Source of the DNA: Octopus vulgaris
Taxonomy: Eukaryota
NCBI GenBank assembly: GCA_951406725.2
Contig: OX597826.1
Coordinates: forward strand, 75,516,001-75,580,000
Length of the DNA: 64,000 nt
Direction of reading: 5' to 3'
A model generated the notes under the pieces. That model had not been told where the DNA came from. It searched no databases and saw only the letters and a list, made by a program, of their open reading frames with translations. The position numbers and the translations under genes are program-made. This document shows, one piece after another, positions 3,749 to 64,000 of this stretch. Within the stretch, counting starts at the first letter, position 1; every line of letters begins with the position of its first letter.

Positions 3749-4024
3749 CAGTTAAACCAAATGTTCACGGAAATCATCGCTCTTCGAGGTTTTTTTAACA
3801 AATCAATTGCTGTGTACGTCTTATGTATTTTCTTGCTTCCAAGTTTCATATTTTCGTCAATCTCGGCCTGCAATTTGGATTTCCTTTCTGTTTGAAGTTT
3901 CTGAATAAGTTTTACCGCAATCGCAGCGTTTTTCTTATTTGTTTTAGCTATCTTCTCAAATGACTTTTCAGCTTCAGTAAATTTCCCTTTATTAAGAAGC
4001 CATCTTGGAGACTCAGGAAGGAAT
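3749..4024 (-). CDS. SLC22 paralog B exon 6
   Basis: 276 nt, [21 protein letters not shown]...[19 protein letters not shown]; absent from the ORF track in this frame because there is no start codon. Confidence 0.92.
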
Positions 4025-4565
4025 CTGCCAAATAAGATGATTGATAGACAGTGAGATAACGTTGCAATGTTTTAGAAGTGAAAAATGAAATTATGCAATA
4101 ATAAATTTGAACTGATAATAATTTCATGCATCTTAGACTCAAATTAAACAAATCAGTTTAATTACTACGGAAATGTGAACCTATAACTTTGTAGCTTATA
4201 GGTTTACTGTCTCTTTGTACTGTATTATAAATATGACTAATATTATAACGGGCCGTAAATTATGTTTTCTAAATGGCCATTCGCCGCACATATACAAATA
4301 TATAATTTTTTTATGTGTGTAAATTTGTATCAGAAAACACCTCAGTGAGGGTGAATTATCTGAAAAATCTGTTAAATTCATAAAAGTGGTGAGTTAAATA
4401 TTTTGCAATATAGATATGTATTACTAATAGAAATATTAAAATTACTAAGTCTCTCTAAAAGAGATTACGGCAGCGTTACTGGAAATTAATTGTCATCGCC
4501 ATATTAATATTAGTATGGCGATAACTATTAATAGTATGGCGATAACAAATTACACACACGCACGG

Positions 4566-4608
<43 letters not shown>

Positions 4609-4763
4609 CGCGCACAAACACACATACACACACATACATATTACGACGAGCTTCTATCAGTTTCTGATTACCAAATCTACTCGTAACGCTTTGGTTGACC
4701 CGGGGCTATAGTAGAAGATATTTGACCAAAGTGTCTTGCACTTTGGAAGTGGACATGGAACCA

Positions 4764-4803
<40 letters not shown>

Positions 4804-4821
4804 GCATACATACATACATAC

Positions 4822-4853
<32 letters not shown>

Positions 4854-7800
4854 GTATGTATGTATGTATATATATATATATATATGTATGTATATATATA
4901 TAAAGACGACGGGCTTCTTTCAGTTTCCGTCTACCAAATCCACTCACAAGGCTTTGGTCAGCCCGAGGATATAGTACAAGATGCTTGATCAAGGTGCCAC
5001 GCAGTGGGATTGAACCCTGAATCATGTGGTTGGCAAGCAAGCTTCTTACCACACAGCCACGCCTATCTGCCTAGATGTTCGTTGCAGCATGCACAACTAC
5101 ACTTACTTCAATGCTACAATGACAACCAAAGCCGGTGGAATAACTGAAGCATATAGCAGGTGTTGCCATTTTGGAAATACATATGCCACACCAGCTAGAA
5201 TCATTGCTCCAAAACCGAAGGTTCCATGCATAAGGTAATTCAAACGCATTCTGTAGTTTTGGGCGACACATTCTTGCACTGTAATATAGAAAAAGATATA
5301 TTTCTTAATATAATATGTAAATAGTGATACAAATAGTGGTTTCAATTTTTGGCACAAGGCAAGCAATTTTGGGGGAAGGGGATACGTTGTTTGTTCCTTC
5401 TCGAGCCATGCCTGGCTCATAAGGGCCGGTTTCCCGGTTTCCTTGGTGTATAGATTCCCCCACCTGGACAGGACGCCGGTCTGTCGCAGGTGAGCTGCAA
5501 GATGCAGGAGGAAAGAGTGAGAGAAAGTTGTGGCGAAAGAGTCAGCAGATGTTCATCATTACTTTCCGCCGGAGCTGCGTGGAGCTTAGGTGTTTCGCTC
5601 ATAAACACACACATCGCTCGGTCTGAGATTCGAACCCGTGATCCCTCGACCGTGAGTCGCTGCTCTAACCAGTAGGTCATGTGCCTCCACAAGGGGATAA
5701 GCCGATTGCATTGATCCCAGTGTTCACCTGGTATTTATTTTATCGACACCGAAAGGATGAAAGGAAAAGTCGGCCTCGGCGGAATTTGAACTCAGTTTTC
5801 AACCACCGGTTCAATTAAAGTTTAATTACGTAAAAAAATAACGAAATCTTTGCAATGAGATGTATCTATTGCATACCTTTTAGAGTAATTACTGTAATTC
5901 GTTACAATCACGAATTACATTTATCTGCTCCTCAGTTCAAATCGCTACTGAGGCTATAGTAGGAGACATTTGCTCAAGGCCTCACACAATTGGACTGAGC
6001 CTGGAACCACGTGGTCGAGAAGCAAGCTTCTTACCACACAACAACGCCTGCAGTTGTCTTGTCTCACAGATATAAATCTTCAATTCTTTTTATTAAGGAA
6101 AGGACTGTCGATAGCAGAATTGTAATTTCAGGCAATATTAAGTAAGCACAGATGAAATTTAGAATATAATTCCTGTCGTTGTAGACATTTCGTATTATCG
6201 TTTGAAATCGATAAACAAAACAGAAGCCCCAAATTGGGTTGGTTAGTTGGTTGCTTGCTTGCTTTCTTGGTTCCGTTGACTATAACGCCTCGCATGAAAT
6301 TTCATTAAATGTACTGGAATAGAATTCTCACCGCACTCACGTCTTATGTTCGGAGAACTTTTGAAGATATTAAAAGAATTTTGTTCTTCGCCGTAGAACA
6401 ACGTCGTCCTTAATCGTGTACGACGTACCATCTCTTTCAGATTCTTTTATTAAATAGCAAAAGTGTTTTCTCTTTCGGTAAAATAAAAAAAACGAGAGTA
6501 ATATTTGCAGGGAGCAGCTAGATGACTCCTCAACTATCACAACACCCACATCATTGTTACTCTACATCTGGACCTAACACACTCTGACACAAAATGTATC
6601 ACTCTTGGCACTCTGGTATTTGGTGTTATGTTCTTTTAGACAGTAGTTTCAAATCGATAATATCTCCATGTTCATCGAAGATCACGATGAAGTACTTTGC
6701 ATTCTTTCCTTGTGACACATCACTGAATGCCACTTTGATTACTCGCCGATTCATATCAGATATAAATAATACACAATATTTGCAGGAATGTCCCTTTCAT
6801 TAAGGCTCCTTTATAGCCTTCCTCTTTTAAGGGCCATATGGAAAAACCAAATGTCTTTAATAAATTTCTTGACCTGTACTCTGGTACGGTTGTAAAAACT
6901 CTCACCGTTTTCTTTTGCATACATCTTTATTTCACTTGTGGTAATGCCGGTAACTCATGTCTCACGAAGTATCCGTTTCCTCCTGAACCCCCGCTTAATA
7001 GGCAAACGAATTCACTGTTCTCAGTGATATAGTAAATTTTTAAGATGGTTCTGCCTTAGTAAGAGAGCACCAGGAAATATACTACAAGTGAATAGCAGAC
7101 AATTTTTCAGATGTAGACACAAAAAAAACAACAACAAAAAACGGCGATTTACAGGCTAAAACTCTCTCATTTAGAAAAGGATTAATCCAATGGGACTATA
7201 TTTTCTGATGATGCTGGTATTTTTAATCAACAAACAGGGCCGGATTTGGATACAAATGTTATTGAAAGACAATCACCCATCCATTGTATACGGACGTCTT
7301 TAAGTTGTATAATCCTCATGATAAACTCGTAATACTAAAGCAAGCAGTAGATGAATTCATCAGAGAAATGGATATGAAATAGAGATTAGAAACATACAAC
7401 AAAGTAACGTTGAAGAGTGAAAAATTAAGAACGTTTTCCTGTTAGATACAGTCACAGAAATAATTAGAGAATTCGACCAAACATCGATATCTGGAAAGTA
7501 TACAATACACAAATTAAAGAAAATATTACATAAGAAAGGATTATTTGATGCTCCTACAATATTTGTGGTTGGAGTATCATTAATCATGGATATATTTTTT
7601 AATTAGGGCTGACCATAGACTATAAAGCAGTCGATTACACATTAAAACAAGATATAACAGACTATCGTACAAGCACATTTCTACACACTAAAAAGAAACG
7701 ATTTCGCATACACCACAGGAGTACAAAGGCCCAAATTATGAAGCAAAAAAGAGAGGCATGTAAGTGTTAAGATCAAAAGTTGGCGTCTATAGAATTTTCA

Positions 7801-10800
7801 AATACTTACAGATGGTGAATAAAACTATATACGTGCCAGCAATTCCGAAACCTTCAATAATGTAGATAAGGCAAAAGACAGTGTAATTTGGTGAGTATAT
7901 TTTGACAAAACGACAAAATATATTCAATAGATCCGCAACACAGAAAATCTTATATCGGCCGAATCTGCGAAAAATAAAATTAAAGCGACAAATTATTGTT
8001 TTAGTGTTTTTTAAAAAAAGTTTATTTTTTAAATTCATCTGTCTGTTAGAAATCGAATTCCCTTCATGTCAATATATAAATCTCTCACGTTTCTCTCTCA
8101 CGTTTCTCTCCATTTCTTTCTCTTTCTCTTTCTCTTTCTCTCTCTCTCTTCCTCTCTCGCTCTCTTCTCTCTCTTGTTCGATCCCTATTCGTTGTCGATC
8201 TCTCACTTTTCATCTCTCATCACCCCCCAACACACACACAAATATATATATGTATATACGAGAGTTGTGCCGAAAATAATGCAAAAGTGGGTATAGGGAT
8301 ACAAGGAGGGTGGTGAATGAAATTTAATGAAATTTGCGACAAATAACTTTTAGATGTACAAGTTATGATTTGGATGGAATTTAACGGGAAAGAAATTCAG
8401 CGAAATTGAGCAGATATTTTACTCATTTCGGCCTTGTTTTCTCATATATTTTGATGATTTAGATTTCAATTATGTTAAAAAATTACTTTTCAGGACAGTT
8501 TCATCTTTTCCCGAAAATTCCCTGAAAGAAATCATTGTACTAGTACGAGTAAATTGCGCAGCGAACTAGCAGAATCGTTAGCACGCCGGACAAAATGCTT
8601 AACAGCATTTCTTCCGGATTTACCTTCCGGAGTTGAAATTCCACCGAAGTCGACTTTACCTTTCATCTTTTAGGGACCGATAAATAAGTACCAGCGAAGC
8701 ACTAGGGCTTTTCCTTTCTTTTCTGTTATTGGCTTTTCCTTTCTCCCAAAGTTGCTGGCCTTGTTCCAAGACCTGAGACCATTACTTTGACGCTGTCGAG
8801 ATCTCCCTTAAATAAACTCAGGCATAGTCCAGTGTCCATTCATTACCTGGTCGTTTAGTATACTAAAAGTAGAATAAATCTAGGATTTATGGTGAATGTT
8901 ATTTGATACAACGTTATTCACCTTTATTGCTTGTAAGTCCTTGCTTCTTTGACATTTTCTCATATTGACAGAAAGTCAAGACCCAAGGTTAGTAGAAGTA
9001 AATATCGACATTTGCATTTGACTGACACCGCTTCTATCCATAAGCGCTGAGTAGAACATTTTTCTGCACTTTTGAACAGACCATCCTCTGTTGGCATGAG
9101 GTATTCGATATTGTTAATCGAAATGCCCTGTGATTAATTCTAAGGAAAATAGGTTGCCCATAAAAAATTGTGAACATGATCAGGGCTTTGCATCAAGATA
9201 TGAAGACTAAATTTTGGTAGGAGGCTTTCTGAATCATATTTTGCCATGGAAAATGGAGTAAAGCAAGGAGACCTTGATGCTCCCACCCTCTTTGCAATAT
9301 ACTTTGCTGTTGTGCTATCACACGTTTTTTAAAACTATCGATCAATGGCTAATGTTTTCAATCTGACCAAACTGAAATTCAAAACAAAGCTTTTACGACA
9401 CTCATTAGGGAACCCCTATACACAGACGATTGCGATCTAGTCAGTCACTCTGAAACAGGCCTGCAATCTCTTGGATCGGCATTTGACTCATATTCTGGTA
9501 TGACCATCAACTTGAAAAAAAAAAAACAGTTGTGATGTATCAAATCCCATGTGGTACTGTTTATAAACCCCTAAACCTTTCGCTAAGGGTAAGTTATATG
9601 AGGTTGTTGACTCTCATCGACCTCGGAAGCGCTGTACAAAATGATGGAAATCTGAACACAAAAATATATCTGCGAATTCAAAGGGCAGCACAAGCATTTG
9701 ATGGTTTGGAGTCACGTGTTTGGCGCCAACGACATATAAATAACAACACAAAATCGTTATCCCCGTTGTATCCCTCTGAAACATGGACCGATTACGAAAG
9801 ACATCTCAAATTGTCAGAACTATTCCACCAAATATGCCATCGCCGCATTTTAAACTTTAAACAGAACTTGTTTACTCATGACACATATGTCCTTGCATCT
9901 GCAGACGTCAGTTCACTTAAATCAATGATCTTGAAAAATCAAATGAGTTGGTCTGGCCACATTGTTCGAATGGTGGATGAACGCGCACCCAAGTTTTATG
10001 GCGAACTTGCAGAAGGGAAACGCGATCAGTGTAAACCTCAAAAGAGCTTTAAGGACTGTTTAAAGACTAACATGAAGTCATTTGGAAAAGATCCAAAGAC
10101 CATAAAAACCCTTGCTTCGGATGGAGCTGGATGGTGGACAAAAGTGTGGAGTGGAGTGGAAGCTTTTGAAGAAACCAGGATGACGCATGTGAAACTAAAA
10201 AGATATTTACAGAAAAATGCTACGATCAAGGAGAAAATTAATACCAACAACCTTTTTGCGTGCACAATTTGAGACAGATCATGCTGTTCTCTTACTGCGT
10301 TATGCATTTTCTCTGTGTGATTTTGTTTGGTAGAGTGGAATATTTCTTCTCAACGAATGTAACTTACTGGCGTAATTGTTTCTGAGTAAAACTTTGCGAA
10401 TGTTGGGTGTTTCTTATCCCAATATTCCTTAATTCTCTTCATGTAGCCAATCGAGAGATTTTCTCTGGTCTCTCTGCAAAATTAGTATAGGTTTCGGTTC
10501 AGTTAGAAAGTCCACTGGAATTCTTCTCGATAGAGCCGTTGCGCTTGTGATAGCTGACTTCGGATTCTATCGTTGCCATGGTGATATGTATTAACTTAAT
10601 TTCAGTGTTGCTTACTGTTTCGATCTTCTCAGGAAAGGTTGTTTCTTTGTATTTACTCCAAAAAGATAACCATTTCTTTTGCCGAGGCTTGTATTTATGG
10701 CAAAAAATTATAGGAGACTGTATTCACTAACCGGTAGAATGAATAGACTGCTATGCCAACGTTTCTGGATTCGACGCCATGATGTTTGTGTATATGAGTG

Positions 10801-10911
10801 TATATATGAAATTTTATCTTCTTTGAGAAATGAAACACTTGCTGGTTAATTTGTGGATGAATTAATAAATTTATTTGCATTCATTAGACATCTCTGTTTT
10901 CTAATTCAGCT

Positions 10912-10943
<32 letters not shown>

Positions 10944-11027
10944 TGTATGTATGTATGTATGTATGTATGTATGTATGTATGTATGTATGTATGTATGTAT
11001 GTATGTATGTATGTTTGTATCTGAATA

Positions 11028-11063
<36 letters not shown>

Positions 11064-11896
11064 AAGGTAGGTAGGTAGGCAAGAAGCCATAATTATAATG
11101 TTGGTTTCAAATTTGAAGGCCCGTAATTTCGGGAGAGAGGGTAAGCCAATTACATCGGCCCCAATGCTGAACTTGTACTTATTTTATCGACCTGAAAAGG
11201 ATGAAACATGAAGTGGTTCTCGGTGGAATTTGAGCCCAGAGCGAAAGGTCGGACGAAATACCACGAAATATTTTGCCTGGCTTGCTAACGATTTTTGCCT
11301 GTTCGCCACTTTAATAATTATCATAATGATATTAGCATTTTGAATTGATCATTATATTGTTAGTAAAAGGTAAGATTTGAACTTCAAAATCAGTGTAGTT
11401 ATTTAGTTATAGATATATTTACAGCTATTGGATGCCATACTGACCCACAAACTGGCTTGCAATCTGGTTAAAAGTTCACAAACCATAGATCTATCATTGT
11501 TCAGACAAGAACACAGTGCACCTGATTGGCGTCTTGTCAATGTATCTATTACTCGACATCCGTCACATAATTATATTTATAAGGACTTTATACGATTTCT
11601 GTCAACTTTTTCATTGTTAATTTGTTAGATATTTCATTATTCATTTATATGAATTCCATTTTCTTATAACCAGCATTCTTAGAGAAAATCCACATTATAT
11701 ACTTACGCGTCTGAAAGTGTACCAAAAAGTATATTTCCAACCAGAAATCCTGCAAACATTGCTGACACCGCAATGTTTTTCAACCATTCTCTTTCGCAAA
11801 CCAAATCGAACTGAAGAAAAACAGAATGACATTTTAAACAGCGCTAATTGTTCAAGGTATGTGTGTGTATGTGTATGTGTATGTGTGTGTGTGTGT

Positions 11897-11960
<64 letters not shown>

Positions 11961-12262
11961 CAAATACAGCAATATTTTCTCTGAGGGAGCCTTTTATACA
12001 GACGGCAATGAATATCCTACACTCAGTAGGATCTACATCACCATTTGGTATTGATGCAGCTTCCATCGGTAATATTTATATTCAGATGATTTAATAAAAA
12101 ATAACGATAAGTTCATTGACGAATGTCAGACATTCTGAATGAATTCTTATTTGTCCTTAATTTAAAGAGAGGAAACGAAAATATAGTGGCAAAAACTGGT
12201 GACATGTAAAAACTGGAGAAATGTAAATATTTAAATTTATATCTCTTTAGCCTTTAAGTGAA

Positions 12263-12303
<41 letters not shown>

Positions 12304-14933
12304 CGTGAAGAAATGAATTACAAAAATTTCGTTAGCCGGAATCTATATAAATATAGAAAGTGGACGACTTTATCTACATTGGTACCCCTAACCCAATTGG
12401 TTTATTTCTTTTCATTGCCGTACATTTTAATCATTACAATATTCCACTAAACTTCGTATTTCTTCTGCCATATGGAATTTTCGGTCTTGAAAATTCACAA
12501 TTCCTATTCTCACTGCATAAATAATCATTAAATGCTGTAAACTGTGGAATTGATTTTTGCAAAGATTTAACGTTAATTAGAAAACTAAAATTTATCTTCA
12601 GCATCTACTGAAATTTCCGTTTATTGAAATCACGATTTTATAAGACTTAGGGGGCGTATATATTTAAGGAATAAAGATTTTAAAAAAATAAACAAACAAA
12701 CAAAAAACGAGTTACAACTCCTTACCTCAGAGACAATAGATGACAGATGGTCAGAGTAGAACTTTCGACCATTATTACACGGTTCCTTTGTAGAATTACT
12801 GGTGGGAAGGATATAAAATCCTTCTTTAGTATCCAGGTTATACACAGAGCATTTCTCTTCTTCGACAGCTGCCTTGTTTAAGAATTCATCCAAGGTGATG
12901 TTTGGTGGAATCAAAGATTCATTGAAATTTGAAGGATAACAAGCAAACGGAACACTTTCTCTTATAAATACCATCGTTAAAAGAGCTTGAGCGTGACATG
13001 TTACAAAGATTACAACATAAATAGTAAGTATCTTTTGAAATAAACTATATCCACCACATTTCTTCAGTATTTCTTCTGTAATTTCAGATACTGACAAATC
13101 TAAAATTGAAACCAAAGCAAACATTGTTTCGTTAATAAATTTCTAATGAATCGTTTTCATTTAAATTTTTGGGATCGATAAAATAAATATCTGATGAGCA
13201 TTGGGTTTGATGTAATCGATAGCCCCCAACATCAAATTTCAGACTTTGTGCCTATAGTAGAAAAGGTACTAATTACTAATTAATAAGGCGGCGAGCTGGC
13301 AGAAACGTTAGCACGCCGGGCAAAATGCATAGCGGTATTTCGCCTGTCTTTACGTTCTGAGTCCAAATTTCACTGAGGTCGACTTTACCTTTCATCCTTT
13401 CGCGGTCGATAAATTAAGTACCAGTTACGCATTGAGGTCGATGTAATCGACTTAATCCCTTTGTCTGTCCGTGTTTGACCCCTCCATGTTTAAATCCTTG
13501 TGAGCAATAAAGAAATAAGAAACGTCAGCACGCCGGACGAAATGCTTAGCGGTATTTCGTTAGTCTTTACGTTCTGAATCCAAATTCCGCCATAGTCGAC
13601 TTTACCTTTCATGCTTTCGGAGTCGATAAATTAAGTACCAGTTCCGTACTGAGGTCGATCTAATTTACTGGCCCCCACCTCTCCAAAAATTCAAAGAAAT
13701 ACTAGCCCACTATGGAGCTCATAAGCTTATTAAATATTATTATCAACATAATCTCCGGTATTTACATAACTTATTCTGACGCAGTTTAAAAGCTTTTTTT
13801 TTTAAGTTGCATTCTTAATATTTCTTCTGCGAGTTCATATATTAACTAATCTAAAATTTTACATGAAACAAAATATATTCTGATAATTAATTTTTAAGAA
13901 ATCTTAGTATGTGTTGTCACTGATAATCTCTGTTGTTCAAATATATTTTGTAAACATTTACGTTGGATTATTCAAAACATTTAAAGGGTTGACAACTTGA
14001 AATGTGTAAAATGACAAGTAAATAAGTACACAAACATATATTTTTATTTTCCCTCCCTGTTTATTTCTGCGTTCCTTCCTGTGGAAGAGCGTATGACCGA
14101 AACATAAAATACTTTCTCATTTCCCGTGCATTAAACTAATACATCTGTTTGTTGTTTACCCACCTGTATTCGTCGTACATTTGTAAATTCCAATTATATA
14201 TATATATGCCGTAAATCCTCGAGTATAGTCCGCCCTTGAGTATAATACGCAGGGGATTTTTAGGGAGCTGTACCTCTGAAAAAATCTGAAAGAAGCGGCC
14301 CAGGATAGAACTGAATGGAGGACACTGATCCATCGAGTAACCGAGAGTCGACTTCGACTGAGCGGATAGCTAGAGATAGACCTCTGAAAAACCTAAACCT
14401 TGTGCATAATACGCACCCTTTCTCTAACTTGAGTCAAGGAGGTCTATATAACGACCTTGGTTTGTGAAAATGTATACGGTAACGTCCTTTATTATTATTG
14501 TATACATAACATAATGCAGACGTGTAGCACAATTCGTGCATAATTAAGCCAGCAGCACCTGGTCGAACAAACACTTCCGCGCATGCGTAATACAATAATA
14601 GTGATGTTCTTAACTGTTATATGGGAACGTAAATATGTTTGCAAATTGTTTTTGTTACGTTATTCTGTGTTCTGAATACTTTTATTTTGATAAATGTTGC
14701 TAACTGCAAATTATGGATGATTCTTTTATGACTTCATTGCTTTCAGGTTTAGCTGAAGGTGTTTTCGCGCCCGACATCACTAAATGCGTATGAATAAACA
14801 TTGCCGGACAGCAAATAGAGACTCGGACATTGCTTAGAAAATAGTTTTAATTTTTAACCTCGTATATAGTACGCACAAGGGATTTTGACCTTTAAATTTT
14901 TGGGAAAAAAATGCGGATTATACTCGAGGATTT

Positions 14934-14968
<35 letters not shown>

Positions 14969-15203
14969 GTTAATCCAAACATGAAAACACAAAGAGAAAA
15001 CATAACAACGCGAGGACGTGGAACAAGTATAATGTTTTGGGACGCTCAGACAAGGAGAGAAAGAAGGAGGATTTAACGTTTCTTGCGGAGCTCTTCGTCA
15101 GAAACATAGGAAAAGGAAAGATCCAAGGAAGGGAAGATGGAGAAGAAAATCGCCAACGATACACACGCGGTCACATATAGATGGAAACTGAAAGAAGTCC
15201 GTC

Positions 15204-15256
<53 letters not shown>

Positions 15257-15302
15257 TATATATATATGTGTCTGTGTGTATACATACATACACAAATATC
15301 TA

Positions 15303-15341
<39 letters not shown>

Positions 15342-16493
15342 ATATACACACATATATATATGTATACATATGTGTTTTTGTATGCATATAACTGATAGTG
15401 AGGGTAGTATATTCGTGTATATATATATAACTATATACATATTTTAAATTTGTTTACAGGAAACGTTTTGAATATGCAAATATAGCCCCTACTCCTTTAT
15501 GTTGGCTACAGTCCTATGATGGTGATTGGTCAACCAGTTTGGTGGGTGGAGTTGCACCAAGCTGTAGTGATATAATGTAGGATAAATATAGTAGTAATAA
15601 CAATAGTCCTGCGATGGAATTTTAAAATATCTTAATTCATCGCTACGCGCGATTCCACAAATACGTCTCTTAAGATGACAACCTTTATTCCTGGGATGAT
15701 TAGATGTGCTTCAAGTGGTATAGCATAAATGGATGTTTAACTGAGGGCTGGTTATCCTTTCTGACCAGTGAGGATAAACAACCTTCAGTTAAACTTTTAT
15801 TAATGCTATATCGCCCTAAGAAATGAATCCTTGAAGATGATCCACACTATGGATTACAAGATAATTATTGTTATTATTACTATACATATACATAGGCGCA
15901 GGAGTGGCTGTGTGGTAAGTATTATGTTTACCAACCACATGGTTGGGCAAGTGTCTTCTACTATAGCCTCGGGCCGACCAAAGCCAAGTGAATAGATTTG
16001 GTAGACGGAAACTGAAAGAAGCCCTTCGTATATATGTATATATATATATGCGTGTGTGTGTTTGTGTGTCTGTGTTTGTCCCCCTAGCATTGCTTGACAA
16101 CCGATGCTGGTGTGTTTACGTCCCCGTTACTTAGCGGTTCGGCAAAAGAAACCGATAGAACAAGTACTGGGTTTACAAAAGAATAAGTCCCGGTGTCGAG
16201 TTGCTCGATTAAAGGCGGTGCTCCAGCATGGCCGCAGTCAAATGACTGAAACAAGTAAAAAAGTAAAGAGTAATACTCCTACACACACGCGTGCATACAC
16301 ACATACACACACAAATACACGCACACATACACGCAGACATACACGTATATATGTATTTCTGTTCAAACACAGAAAACACGATGGCATTATAAAATGAAAA
16401 GAAGCGAAAATAAAAGATAATCTTCAGACCTTTGAATTCTTCAACATTTAAATCCTCGTGTAATTCCTTTAAAACGCTTGCTTCATTCTCCAT
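3749..16493 (-). CDS. SLC22-family transporter, paralog B, 3'-partial: exons 16430-16493, 12726-13099, 11707-11810, 7810-7964, 5107-5278, 3749-4024; remaining exons expected beyond the window start
   Basis: Same exon sizes and phases as paralog A (64/374/104/155/172; exon 6 is 276 vs 288 nt). Open frame throughout. Motifs FDLVC, SDAFGR, PESPRWL. Confidence 0.9.
5107..5278 (-). CDS. SLC22 paralog B exon 5
   Basis: 172 nt, [13 protein letters not shown]...FPKWQHLL...VALK. Confidence 0.9.
5392..5691 (-). mobile_element. tRNA-derived SINE (GTGGAGGC-head family, related copy)
   Basis: Reverse complement resembles the 43502 and 57261 copies; A/B-box-like head. Confidence 0.65.
7810..7964 (-). CDS. 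SLC22 paralog B exon 4
   Basis: 155 nt, [51 protein letters not shown]. Confidence 0.92.
9020..10300 (+). mobile_element. RTE-clade LINE reverse transcriptase fragment, decayed
   Basis: [43 protein letters not shown] motifs interrupted by stops and frameshifts. Confidence 0.85.
11707..11810 (-). CDS. SLC22 paralog B exon 3
   Basis: 104 nt, [35 protein letters not shown]. Confidence 0.92.
12726..13099 (-). CDS. SLC22 paralog B exon 2
   Basis: 374 nt, [14 protein letters not shown]...SSIVSE, GT-AG boundaries. Confidence 0.92.
13286..13700 (+). mobile_element. tRNA-derived SINE family 1 (GGCGGCGAGCTGGCAGAA head), tandem/partially duplicated
   Basis: Multi-copy in the window (e.g. 8563, 16612, 20951, 23609, 38746, 49220, 50908 on +; 11103, 31485, 35277, 52880, 54362, 54700, 55403 on -); GTTCAAATTC B-box-like motif. 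Confidence 0.8.
14209..14935. mobile_element. Non-autonomous Tc1/mariner-superfamily (Tc2/pogo-like) DNA transposon
   Basis: TIRs CCGTAAATCCTCGAGTATAGTCCGC / GCGGATTATACTCGAGGATTTAC; no ORF. Confidence 0.7.
15893..16272 (+). mobile_element. tRNA-derived CORE-like SINE family 2 (AGGCGCAGGAGTGGCTGTGTGGTAAG head, internal microsatellite, AAAGAGT tail)
   Basis: Related copies at 22903-23313(+), 33971-34461(-), 51385-51818(-), 59329-59729(-), 61124-61525(-), 4903-5064(-). Confidence 0.8.
16430..16493 (-). CDS. SLC22 paralog B coding exon 1 ([21 protein letters not shown])
   Basis: ATG at 16493, donor G|GTCTGA, homologous to 53258-53321; upstream acceptor ttttttcag at ~16528. Confidence 0.75.
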
Positions 16494-24049: not shown

Positions 24050-25950
24050 GCTTGAAAATGATATGCAAGACAGTCGAAGTTTTTCTTAAAGAATGTGTTG
24101 AAATATATTCAATATCGCTGCGATGCGTAACCACCATATATTACAAAGACAAATTCACAAGTAGCAGTCGAAAATAATTCAAAAGTCAAAACATACTATC
24201 CGTATGGTATTTTGTCGGTTAACATTTAAAATTCTGTTGCAGGAAATTAAAAGTTCGCGTCTCTGATTTAAAGCGCTTTTATCCTGGAACATGATGAAGA
24301 ATTTTTCCGAAAGGCATAAATTGCATTTCATGGGTCTTTTATGAGCTCCATGTCTGTAAGCTTATGCTTTGTCTAAGATTTTCCGTCCTGTTTTCGGGGT
24401 ACCGGAAGGAATTTCTGTGGGAATAAAATCGGGTCTTGAAAGAATTTTCAGAAGCCCTGTGTATGTTTTATATTCTTGCAAGCCTTCTATTTGTACTTTG
24501 GCCCTCTATACAATCCCTTTTTCCAGACATTTTCCTTCCAACGGACAGGGGGTCTCATCTTTGAAATTACAATTCTTTGGATTAGAATAGGCACTGAAGT
24601 TATCTGTGATTATTTTAGTGTTGTGTTGGCTAATGAAAGAGGCGAAGTTTTTACAATAATAGCTAATTTTCAGCGTTCGCCTATTAAATATTCTGTAGAA
24701 CTTATGGCTAGGTTGAAAATGCTTGGAGACTAATTTAAAAAATTCATTACCTATATTATATTTGTTTTTATGACTATATTAAATGCTGGGTTGAACCAAA
24801 AAACCCTCATAGTTCTAGTTCTACGTGTTGTATTATTGCTCGCATTAAATTGGTTGTATTGGATCTTCTCCAAGAATCCACTATTCTTTAATGCGTTATT
24901 GTAATAGGGTGCAGCATTTTGAAATGCTGTCTCATCCGAAGAAATTGAAAATATTCGCCTACCTACATTATTGACAATGTTCTTAAGAATAACGGGTGGA
25001 TGAATAGATTCTTTGCTAATATAAGATAGCTTTTCATTAGGCTTACGGAAAGGTTTGAAACTATTTAACTGTAAATCTAAATTAATATCTAAGAAATCTA
25101 CGTTTTTTTAAAAAAATTACTATCTATCGTAATCCATAAGCCCATTCTTTAGAAGACATTTAGATCCTTCCTAAGTTATCTAAATCATGGCCGTTTCAAA
25201 TAATTGGTGACTATAAGGCCGTCATCCCTGTATAATCCTGCGTCTATTAGAGGGAATCTTAGACTTAGATTATGCAAAATATAAGCTCCTATAAGCACAC
25301 ATAACGCAGCCCCATCATATGCCCCGTGATCGGTACATCGAAAAGAGAATCCTCACTCTTTTTGACCCAGGTTGAATCCTCGTAGAAAAGAAGAGATTTT
25401 CTCGCATGCAGTATAATATCCATTTCCGAGTCATCGATGCTGACATACTGCTTGGTGAAGTCTAATGCTTTTAGAAGCAAAGGCCTGGATATTGACGGGT
25501 AAAAATCAACAATATCAAACTGTGTAAACTTACAATTATGCTTATGGCTAATCTCTTTGAACCGATCTATCACTGACTTGCTATTATTCCAAATCTGTAA
25601 ATTTAATTCACTATCTAACATAGTTAAAATACGATCTAAAATATATTTGCTAATAATACCTATTTCAGTTTTAGCAGGATTAATCAATCTACATTTAGGG
25701 TTTCTATTAAAATTAGTTTTATGGTATTTTAGGGTAATAAAAGAGTGGCGCTGAGGGAGATATTCTATCCTATCACTAACTTTAAGATTGTTAGCAATTC
25801 TTCTTGCCTCCAAATTCACCTGTTTATATAAATTTGCGTTGTCTTTTTTTTTATGTATCTGTGATACTATTCGAAATTAAACGCTTATAAACGTCCTTAT
25901 CAACCGCATATAAGATGTTTGTCTTATCAGAGTTCACGAAGATCTTATAT
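24050..25950 (-). mobile_element. Penelope-like retroelement, decayed (RT plus GIY-YIG endonuclease)
   Basis: CRLINPAK, FDIVDFYPSI, GLYRDDGL RT motifs and a downstream VYRAKV...YTG..ENSFKTRF.SH GIY-YIG-like segment; frameshifted. A short fragment recurs at 32686-32748. Confidence 0.85.
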
Positions 25951-35595: not shown

Positions 35596-53321
<17,726 letters not shown>

Positions 53322-63573: not shown

Positions 63574-63689
63574 GAGGGTATTATTACACATAAATGCCAC
63601 GACTGAATATATATATAGGAGAGTATCTGAATTCTAATAAAGAAGCAAAATAATGACTGAATATATAAACAAGCGCCTGTCCAACAGTG

Positions 63690-64000
63690 ATTGCATCATC
63701 CATACTCTCAACAATGCGCCCTTAAATATGGTTTCTGATTACAAATATCTTGGGTCATACATATCATCATCTGGAAAAGATTTTCTAACTAGAAAGGGTA
63801 TGGCCTGGTCAGCCTGTAATGACATGCATAAGATCTGGTCATCAAATCTAAGTAGAGGCTTCAAACTTGAAATCTTCAAAGCCACAGTCGAACCAATTCT
63901 ACTATATGGCTCAGAAACGTTATCAAAGAAGCTTGAGAGGCGGTTGGATGGAACCTACACTCGCCTCCTTATGAGAGCTCAAAATCTCTCGTGGAAGCGC
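63690..64000 (+). mobile_element. RTE-type LINE RT C-terminal fragment, runs off the window end
   Basis: YKYLGSYI...KGMAWSACNDMHKIW...FKATVEPILLYGSET...RLLMRAQNLSWK. Confidence 0.8.

What the first reader, a model, noticed from the sequence alone, without database searches (positions are those of the whole stretch)
12707..12953. Probable gene conversion homogenising only the large extracellular loop of two diverged SLC22 paralogs
Seen: 12707-12953 and its counterpart 48239-48485 differ at only 6 of ~247 nt by my manual count (~97-98% identity), including ~19 nt of intron past the donor. Exon 3 differs at 19 of 104 nt (~82%), and the TM1 part of the same exon 2 is strongly diverged ([15 protein letters not shown] vs [15 protein letters not shown]). 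Known: the glycosylated, disulfide-bonded loop 1 of SLC22 proteins is usually among the less conserved regions and supports oligomerisation and trafficking in OCT1/OAT1. Inference: recent or recurrent interlocus conversion keeps a shared ectodomain while the transport core diversifies. This could indicate a family with a common assembly module and variable substrate pockets.
Basis: partly seen in the sequence, partly recalled or inferred. Interest (0 to 1): 0.8.

Follow-up and report, generated by a model that had tools for sequence, protein, structure and literature searches.

The report
Octopus transporters share one copied loop
Neighbouring, otherwise well-diverged SLC22 transporter genes of octopus carry a nearly identical outer loop, likely kept alike by repeated gene-to-gene copying (gene conversion), a known process seen here in a new gene family, and nothing yet shows that the shared loop makes the transporters assemble together.

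Summary
The two stretches differ at 6 of 247 nt, including 19 identical intron bases, inside two tandem SLC22 genes. Gene B equals the Octopus vulgaris protein CAI9732231.1 at 501 of 501 residues. Synonymous difference is 0.08 in the tract against 0.44 elsewhere (scan permutation p=4e-5). The tract encodes 76 of about 85 residues of the extracellular domain. A third paralog outside the window (A2) shares it, and the mosaic recurs in O. sinensis and O. bimaculoides, so it is not an assembly error. Loop and rest-of-protein trees conflict (AU p=0.018 and 0.00014). Two sites group by species rather than by gene, which points to repeated conversion. Within this octopus family the loop is the most conserved part, not the least. 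Another pair (A1/C) shares a 51-residue patch inside the transport core. A shared assembly module remains a hypothesis; its one hint is that the shared loop changes about four times more slowly between species. Verdict: likely gene conversion confined to one domain, a known kind (protocadherins, TLR1/6), in an apparently undescribed octopus SLC22 cluster.

The parts
12707..12953 (-). Homogenised tract in gene A1: codons 71-146 of exon 2 (extracellular domain) plus the first 19 nt of intron 2
48239..48485 (-). Homogenised tract in gene B, counterpart of the above
12808..12917 (-). 110-nt core with no difference between A1 and B (48340-48449 in B); holds codon 102, GAA in both, and codon 104
12726..13099 (-). 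Gene A1 exon 2 (374 nt): N-terminal helix, TM1, extracellular domain; sharp identity step near 12979
48258..48631 (-). Gene B exon 2 (374 nt); joined to exon 3 in a contig of run X3 with 0 differences
3749..16493 (-). Gene A1, coding exons 1-6: 16493-16430, 13099-12726, 11810-11707, 7964-7810, 5278-5107, 4024-3749. Exons 7-9 were not found in the window and would lie beyond its left end. Likely ortholog of O. sinensis XP_036364375.1 (357 of 364 aligned residues)
35596..53321 (-). Gene B, 9 coding exons: 53321-53258, 48631-48258, 47341-47238, 45716-45562, 44217-44046, 41460-41173, 39441-39227, 37850-37742, 35803-35596. 562 aa; equals O. vulgaris CAI9732231.1 over its 501 residues
11707..11810 (-). 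A1 exon 3 (47238-47341 in B): end of the extracellular domain with the fourth conserved Cys (C151) and TM2; not homogenised between A1 and B (85 of 104 nt)

Best explanation
Three neighbouring octopus SLC22 transporter genes (A1 and B in the window, A2 outside it) share a nearly identical stretch of about 250 bases encoding the extracellular loop, likely because repeated non-allelic gene conversion keeps copying it between them, and likely only there because it is the one long near-identical stretch left while an interchangeable folding or trafficking loop would cost nothing to swap. Shown: the local identity at synonymous sites, its match to the extracellular domain in the predicted model, the same mosaic in three species, and the conflict between the loop tree and the tree of the rest. 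Inferred: that the exchange was conversion rather than double crossover; that it recurred after the species split (two informative residues); that it persists because identity feeds further conversion, while repeat-filled introns and diverged membrane exons stop it elsewhere; that the loop's role is folding and trafficking as proposed for OCT1; and that the membrane segments diverged for different substrates.
For: (1) pS 0.081 against 0.436, permutation p=4e-5. (2) Tract identity of A1 or A2 to B is 96-97% in O. sinensis and 97-100% in O. bimaculoides, against 43-79% in the other exons. The 42 O. sinensis pairs outside the trio reach only 62-84%. Regression on identity elsewhere predicts 74% for A1-B; 96% is observed, z=4.1, 35 control pairs. 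(3) Trees: A+B is one clade in the tract (96/93) with near-zero inner branches, while A and B have stems of 0.27 and 0.18 in exons 3-6. The AU test rejects A+B outside the tract (p=0.018) and rejects A+C inside it (p=0.00014). (4) A98, A99, S137 and D138 occur in the A/B rows and in 0 of 14 other paralog rows, so these are shared derived residues, not retained ancestral ones. (5) Recurrence: residue 104 is R in 3 of 3 O. bimaculoides copies and K in 6 of 6 O. vulgaris and O. sinensis copies. Residue 102 is E in O. vulgaris B, with the same GAA codon as A1, but D in B of the other two species. The A1/B quartet gives 2 species-shared to 0 gene-shared sites in the tract and 0 to 21 outside, p=0.004. 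Seven control quartets that include a gene outside the trio show 0 species-shared against 79 gene-shared tract sites. (6) The longest identical run between A1 and B is 110 nt in exon 2 and 11-16 nt in exons 1, 3, 4 and 5; the intron-2 cores are not homologous. Passages of PMC3924818 and PMC3924837 state that conversion falls with divergence, is favoured by about 200 bp of identity in yeast, and ends with insertions. (7) Passages of PMC10567722 favour a folding and trafficking role for the SLC22 extracellular domain.
Against: Recurrence rests on two amino-acid sites. Site 104 is labile: paralog D also has R in O. vulgaris and O. sinensis. The A2/B quartet is not significant (1:1 in the tract, 2:80 outside, p=0.07), and the tract does not reject B orthologs as one clade (p=0.35). 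GC3 is not raised in the tract (p=0.50 and 0.25). The 19-nt intron match is weak on its own, because the donor-4 flank is also 29 of 34 alike. The passive part is challenged by slower ortholog change in the shared loop: 2 of 76 residues against 11-12% elsewhere (p=0.015 for B, 0.023 for A2), whereas the loops of C, D, E and I change at 30 of 304, like the rest (p=0.47). That fits added selection on the shared loop. It could also follow from conversion itself: PMC2720389 passages report lower dN/dS in converted regions for 5 of 6 genes. No O. bimaculoides DNA was available, so synonymous sites were not compared between distant species. The O. bimaculoides A1 model is partial and its orthology is inferred.
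Confidence: 0.68

Rival explanations
1. Conversion is real but is kept by selection: the identical loop lets A1, A2 and B assemble with each other or bind one shared partner, while the membrane cores differ in substrate.
For: The tract edges nearly match the domain (71-146 against 66-150 in the model) and the mosaic is kept in three species. The shared loop changes about four times more slowly between species than the rest, unlike other paralogs' loops. Passages of PMC11119549 report that the large loops of rat Oct1 and Oat1 are pivotal for oligomerisation. Passages of PMC2720389 cite this idea for TLR1/6 and CCR2/5 and call their own version speculative.
Against: The 3' edge falls at the exon-intron border and leaves C151 and the domain's end outside the tract. 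H139 and D139 stay gene-specific in the three species. Passages of PMC10567722 find intermolecular disulfides unlikely and favour folding and trafficking. Other pairs carry patches too, one of them in the transport core, which suits a general process.
Confidence: 0.17
2. One ancient exchange of the exon-2 segment (conversion or double crossover) before the three species split, followed only by strong purifying selection.
For: All three species have the mosaic. Four synonymous differences have built up (dS 0.086). B orthologs are not rejected as a clade in the tract (p=0.35). The K/R site is labile.
Against: It needs parallel K-to-R changes in three O. bimaculoides genes, or in two if A1 and A2 exchange separately, plus a parallel D-to-E change in O. 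vulgaris B. Control quartets show 0 of 79 such tract sites, and A2/B shows 2 of 82 outside the tract.
Confidence: 0.11
3. No exchange: the stretch is held by nucleotide-level constraint, such as double-stranded RNA needed for cephalopod A-to-I editing or splicing elements, and K104R is an edited site later fixed as G in parallel.
For: The loop is the most conserved part among the paralogs. K104 is an AAA codon, one A-to-G step from R. Passages of PMC6881472 report conserved flanks around shared editing sites and preferential A-to-G replacement of nonsynonymous edits.
Against: The tract folds no better than shuffles (z=+1.64 and +0.52). No inverted complement better than E=0.85 lies in the flanking gene regions scanned, and the 19-nt intron piece pairs no better than shuffles. 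Constraint cannot give non-sister genes exclusive derived residues. E102D is not an A-to-G change.
Confidence: 0.03
4. Assembly artefact: one copy was collapsed onto or polished with the other.
For: No listed DNA contig spans the whole stretch. One of the DNA runs could be the source of the window.
Against: The copies differ at 6 sites. The same mosaic appears in named proteins of two other species. A contig of run X3 joins B exon 3, the tract and B's TM1 with 0 differences. B-specific intron contigs in 3 of 3 DNA runs, from three studies, end at 48268, 30 nt inside the tract edge. A-type letters appear at the 5 of 6 diagnostic places that the table lists.
Confidence: 0.01

Closest known systems
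SLC22 transporters (human OCTN2/SLC22A5, OCT1-3, OAT1, URAT1)
   Same: Best sequence matches in the PDB (OCTN2 E=1e-66) and best fold matches (TM-score about 0.8); 12-helix MFS fold with a large extracellular domain between TM1 and TM2 carrying four conserved Cys and three N-glycan sequons.
   Different: About 26% identity in the fold matches. The domain has 4 Cys, so it lacks the third, OCT-specific disulfide described in PMC10567722. It belongs to an octopus cluster of at least 10 paralogs whose nearest listed non-Octopus relative is an Argonauta protein at 45%. Substrate unknown.
Domain-limited conversion in clustered protocadherins (passages of PMC4978886)
   Same: Tandem paralogs in which some domains are homogenised (low dS in EC5 and EC6) while others keep paralog identity.
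   Different: There the specificity domains EC2-3 escape conversion within an adhesion ectodomain. Here the extracellular domain is the converted part of a 12-TM transporter, and only 3 of at least 10 paralogs share it.
Long-lived mosaic gene pairs BMP8A/B, DDX19A/B, TUBG1/2; TLR1/6, CCR2/5 and EMR2/CD97 as cited there (passages of PMC2720389)
   Same: Part of the gene evolves in concert across species and the rest diverges; lower dN/dS in most converted parts; shared binding proposed but not shown.
   Different: Those three pairs include whole introns, show raised GC and do not follow domains. This tract is about 250 nt, has only 19 intron bases, shows no GC3 rise and nearly matches one domain.
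Red/green opsin and RHD/RHCE model of divergence peaks under conversion (passages of PMC3924837)
   Same: A sharp step between converted and diverged sequence inside one gene, here within exon 2 next to TM1.
   Different: The picture is reversed: a small island of identity in a long-diverged pair (dS 0.6-0.9 outside), not a peak of divergence in a homogenised pair.

Membership tests
SLC22 transporter | MFS fold with 12 membrane helices | tested here: met
   Pfam Sugar_tr and MFS_1 above cut-off in 3 of 3 proteins; model pLDDT 89.7; the top 48 of 50 listed fold matches are SLC22 structures
SLC22 transporter | Large extracellular domain between TM1 and TM2 with four conserved Cys | tested here: met
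   TM1 helix 41-65, TM2 from 151; C75, C105 and C151 invariant and C129 nearly invariant in 85 sequences; disulfide pairing itself not examined
SLC22 transporter | N-glycosylation sequons in the loop | tested here: met
   N81, N88, N123 as motifs; occupancy not testable
SLC22 transporter | Transport of organic ions or zwitterions | not testable with these tools
   needs uptake assays
OCT1-3 subfamily | Third, OCT-specific disulfide in the extracellular domain (PMC10567722 passages) | tested here: not met
   only four Cys between residues 66 and 151; database names 'organic cation transporter-like' do not establish this subfamily
Interlocus gene conversion tract | Local excess identity at synonymous sites | tested here: met
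   pS 0.081 against 0.436, scan permutation p=4e-5
Interlocus gene conversion tract | Local tree conflicts with the tree of the rest of the gene | tested here: met
   AU p=0.018 and 0.00014 on proteins; trees
Interlocus gene conversion tract | Sites shared by paralogs within a species (ongoing concerted evolution) | tested here: met
   residues 102 and 104; p=0.004 for A1/B but p=0.07 for A2/B; only two sites, protein level
Interlocus gene conversion tract | Identity runs on into non-coding sequence | tested here: inconclusive
   19 of 19 nt after donor 2 against runs of 2-6 at the other five donors, but the donor-4 flank is 29 of 34 alike
Interlocus gene conversion tract | Raised GC at third positions (supporting sign, not required) | tested here: not met
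   GC3 37% against 32% (A1) and 42% against 35% (B), p=0.50 and 0.25
Interlocus gene conversion tract | Non-reciprocal transfer; polymorphisms shared between paralogs | not testable with these tools
   only contigs were served, which drop rare variants
RNA-editing-constrained element | Stable double-stranded structure or a complementary intronic partner | tested here: not met
Shared oligomerisation module | Physical association of the paralogs through the loop | not testable with these tools
   needs co-expression data and co-immunoprecipitation

The most novel reading that the evidence does not exclude
Selection keeps one extracellular domain identical across three octopus SLC22 transporters so that they co-assemble or dock on one partner, giving mix-and-match transporters with a common cap and different substrate pockets. 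The trio, beside seven paralogs with distinct loops, would be a natural experiment on what the SLC22 extracellular domain is for.
Probability: 0.17. Interest if true: 0.68.

Novelty: new member of a known kind. Interest (0 to 1): 0.36.

Why it matters
It is a clean three-species case of conversion confined to one protein domain in a transporter family. I found no report of it, nor of this octopus SLC22 cluster, in five searches of the held library (judged from titles and abstract openings, and subscription journals are mostly missing). In practice it warns that short reads, primers, probes and loop-directed antibodies cannot tell A1, A2 and B apart over this stretch, and that loop-based orthology is wrong. 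The role of the SLC22 extracellular domain is unsettled in the passages read (oligomerisation against folding and trafficking). Three transporters with one loop and different cores, next to paralogs with other loops, give ready-made constructs for swap tests. The process itself is well known, so a specialist would find it neat rather than surprising.

Tried and rejected
No whole genome is held for this window, so A2 and exons 7-9 of A1 could not be compared as DNA. (self-BLAST) was swamped by repeats and cut; it was not used. Support values were displaced by re-rooting; one search replaces them. The complex prediction for the two loops gave no answer (0.13 and 0.12 against a mark of 0.34; alignments not used, controls not folded) and is not counted either way. 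The run search listed no holder on record as RNA; this says nothing on expression. Run X3 is only guessed to be RNA, though its contig joins two exons at the splice sites. No A1-type contig was evident among the listed X3 pieces; contigs show presence, not absence, so this is not used. Contig depths in the tract (141 against 43-57 beside it in X16; 94 and 93 against 50-59 in X19) fit several copies but are not copy numbers. A high-copy repeat in intron 2 swamped the tables and 13 rows were hidden, so the sixth diagnostic site (48462) is unseen. RNA structure or editing constraint was not supported. GC-biased signature not found. The intron-2 lengths of 915 and 916 nt look like coincidence: core alignment score 211 against 220 +/- 19 for 30 shuffles. 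A search for short relatives found only 2 fragments, of other paralogs. Both look-ups of earlier findings returned nothing. Supplements of the papers were not opened.

Full report
Observation. The two stretches align without gaps at offset 35532 and differ at 6 of 247 bases. Both lie on the minus strand in exon 2 of two tandem genes. All splice sites of the exons I mapped are GT-AG. Gene B (53321-35596, nine exons, 562 aa) equals O. vulgaris CAI9732231.1 at 501 of 501 residues, so the window is likely from that species. Gene A1 (16493 to 3749, six exons in the window) matches O. sinensis XP_036364375.1 at 357 of 364 residues.

More than chance. In the 76 tract codons, 4 of 49.3 synonymous sites differ (dS 0.086). 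The other comparable codons give pS 0.436, with dS 0.60 for exons 3-6 and 0.90 for exon 1 plus the 5' part of exon 2 (Fisher p=9e-7). A scan permutation over 253 same-amino-acid codons gives p=4e-5. The longest identical run is 110 nt in exon 2 and 11-16 nt in exons 1, 3, 4 and 5.

What the genes are. They are SLC22-type transporters by Pfam, by PDB sequence match (OCTN2 E=1e-66) and by fold (48 of the 50 listed matches are SLC22 structures). The model of the O. sinensis B protein (pLDDT 89.7) puts TM1 at 41-65 and TM2 from 151. The tract (codons 71-146) therefore covers 76 of about 85 residues of the extracellular domain, with three of its four conserved Cys and all three sequons. The fourth Cys lies in exon 3, outside the tract. 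The genes belong to an octopus cluster: I sorted the named proteins into 10 paralog groups (A1, A2, B to I; my labels), listed on one contig length per species. The nearest listed non-Octopus relative is an Argonauta protein at 45% identity, and other animals are near 30%.

Not an artefact. The mosaic recurs in named proteins of O. sinensis and O. bimaculoides, and a third paralog, A2, shares it. Tract identity of A1 or A2 to B is 96-100%, against 43-79% in the other exons. Four runs were laid on gene B, out of 24 listed. A 565-nt contig of X3 joins exon 3 to the whole of exon 2 with 0 differences, which ties B's tract alleles to B's flanks. In 3 of 3 DNA runs the B-specific intron contig ends at 48268, 30 nt inside the tract edge. 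A-type letters appear at 48281, 48297, 48314, 48339 and 48450; the sixth site is among hidden rows, and other paralogs may add to these counts at the likeness used. In organism B a 135-nt contig with four A-type differences starts exactly at 48239, and another carries the letter that makes residue 102 an Asp, as in the O. sinensis protein.

Exchange rather than constraint alone. The loop is the most conserved part among the O. sinensis paralogs: 73%, against 46% for TM1, 58% for TM2-6 and 71% for TM7-12 over 35 pairs. Among 65 distant SLC22 rows, mostly vertebrate SLC22A13-like, the loop is middling at 42%. Constraint still does not explain the trio. Their identity elsewhere predicts 74% in the loop; 96% is seen (z=4.1), and the best other pair reaches 84%. 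In the tract tree A+B is one clade (96/93) with near-zero inner branches. In exons 3-6 A and B have stems of 0.27 and 0.18, and A leans to C. AU tests reject A+B outside the tract (p=0.018; 18 rows, partial models left out) and A+C inside it (p=0.00014; 20 rows). Four residues (A98, A99, S137, D138) are found in the A/B rows and in 0 of 14 other rows. Against this, six sites outside the tract are also shared by A and B and rare elsewhere.

Recurrent, not once. Residue 104 is R in all three O. bimaculoides copies and K in all six copies of the other two species. Residue 102 is E in O. vulgaris B and in A1 of O. vulgaris and O. sinensis, but D in B of the other two species and in all A2; A1 and B of the window use the same codon. 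The A1/B quartet has 2 species-shared and 0 gene-shared sites in the tract, and 0 and 21 outside (p=0.004). The A2/B quartet is weaker (1:1 against 2:80, p=0.07). Seven control quartets show 0 species-shared against 79 gene-shared tract sites. The limits are plain: two sites only, paralog D also has R104 in two species, and the tract does not reject a clade of B orthologs (p=0.35). Older differences persist as well, such as D139 in B of all three species. The picture is patchy exchange over a long time, not one recent 247-nt event.

Why only there. Inferred: conversion needs long near-identity and stops where divergence or insertions build up (passages of PMC3924818 and PMC3924837). Between A1 and B the intron cores share little beyond repeats and short flanks, and the membrane exons are 70-82% identical. 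The loop in the longest exon is the one place where the copying can keep itself going. Selection would tolerate this if the loop serves folding and trafficking, as passages of PMC10567722 propose for OCT1. The process is not confined to loops in this family. O. sinensis A1 and C share 51 identical residues over TM8-TM10, A1 and A2 share 82 residues running through exon 3, and H/I and C/D share 30 and 28 residues in the loop. These other patches were seen at protein level only.

The assembly idea. Passages of PMC11119549 and PMC9640557 report that the loops of OCT1, OCT2 and rat Oat1 are needed for oligomerisation or trafficking. Passages of PMC2720389 cite shared binding as a proposed reason for mosaic conversion in TLR1/6 and CCR2/5. 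One result here leans that way. Between O. sinensis and O. bimaculoides the shared loop changed at 2 of 76 residues in both B and A2, against 12% and 11% elsewhere (p=0.015 and 0.023). The loops of C, D, E and I changed at 30 of 304, like the rest of those proteins (p=0.47). Counted once, the trio's loop differs from those loops at p=0.04. This may equally be a by-product of conversion among three copies. The 3' edge follows the exon border rather than the domain end. I give the selected-module reading 0.17.

A cephalopod-specific rival, constraint from RNA editing (passages of PMC6881472), found no support. The tract folds no better than shuffles (z=+1.64 and +0.52) and has no complementary partner in the flanking regions scanned. 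GC3 is not raised.

Comparison and novelty. Domain-limited conversion is known from protocadherins (passages of PMC4978886), from mammalian mosaic pairs (passages of PMC2720389) and from newt sodium channels (passages of 10.1101/2021.03.25.437018). CEACAM domain shuffling (10.1101/2021.08.24.457561) was seen in a search listing only. All papers were read as search passages, none in full, and no supplements were opened. Searches for SLC22 with gene conversion, octopus with SLC22, cephalopod gene conversion, octopus organic cation transporter expansion and solute carriers with concerted evolution listed no paper on this cluster or on conversion between SLC22 paralogs, judged from titles and abstract openings; 20 of 36 and 20 of 24 hits were listed. 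Verdict: a real, likely recurrent conversion tract, a new member of a known kind; interest 0.36.

Noticed in passing
proteins P0017 and P0025, residues 414-464 in gene B numbering (B exon 7 is window 39441-39227): O. sinensis paralogs A1 and C share 51 identical residues over TM8-TM10 (exon 7 at 93%), a second likely conversion patch inside the transport core.
   Followed up: partly
proteins P0010/P0009 and P0025/P0036: Other O. sinensis pairs have identical runs in the loop: H/I 30 residues and C/D 28 residues.
   Followed up: no
whole cluster; window 3749-53321: At least 10 SLC22 paralogs form an octopus cluster in which TM1 (46%) and exon 4 (51%) are among the least alike parts, suggesting divergence of substrate pockets.
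   Followed up: partly
window 48633-48529: The public O. vulgaris model CAI9732232.1 (paralog C) ends with 35 residues read from gene B exon 2 in another frame, likely an annotation read-through; no exon of C was found in the window.
   Followed up: partly
window 14281-14177: The N-terminus of the O. sinensis A1 model (P0017 residues 7-41) matches intron 1 of A1 at 97%; it may be an alternative or mis-annotated first exon.
   Followed up: no
window 7809-7756 and 45561-45508: The first 54 nt of intron 4 are 87% alike between A1 and B although exon 4 is only 70% alike; possibly a conserved splicing element or an old short conversion.
   Followed up: no
window 11811-12725 and 47342-48257: Intron 2 is 915 and 916 nt long in the two genes, yet the cores are unrelated; likely coincidence.
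   Followed up: yes
window 48521: Run X16 (organism A) and run X19 (organism B) both carry the letter that gives Leu instead of Phe at residue 59 of B, as in the O. sinensis protein; a possible shared polymorphism in TM1.
   Followed up: no
window 9487-10269, 24754-25876, 47738-48110, 49448-49795, 63641-64000: Open frames that look by eye like decayed retroelement or transposase pieces (label recalled, not searched), plus a very high-copy repeat in B intron 2.
   Followed up: no
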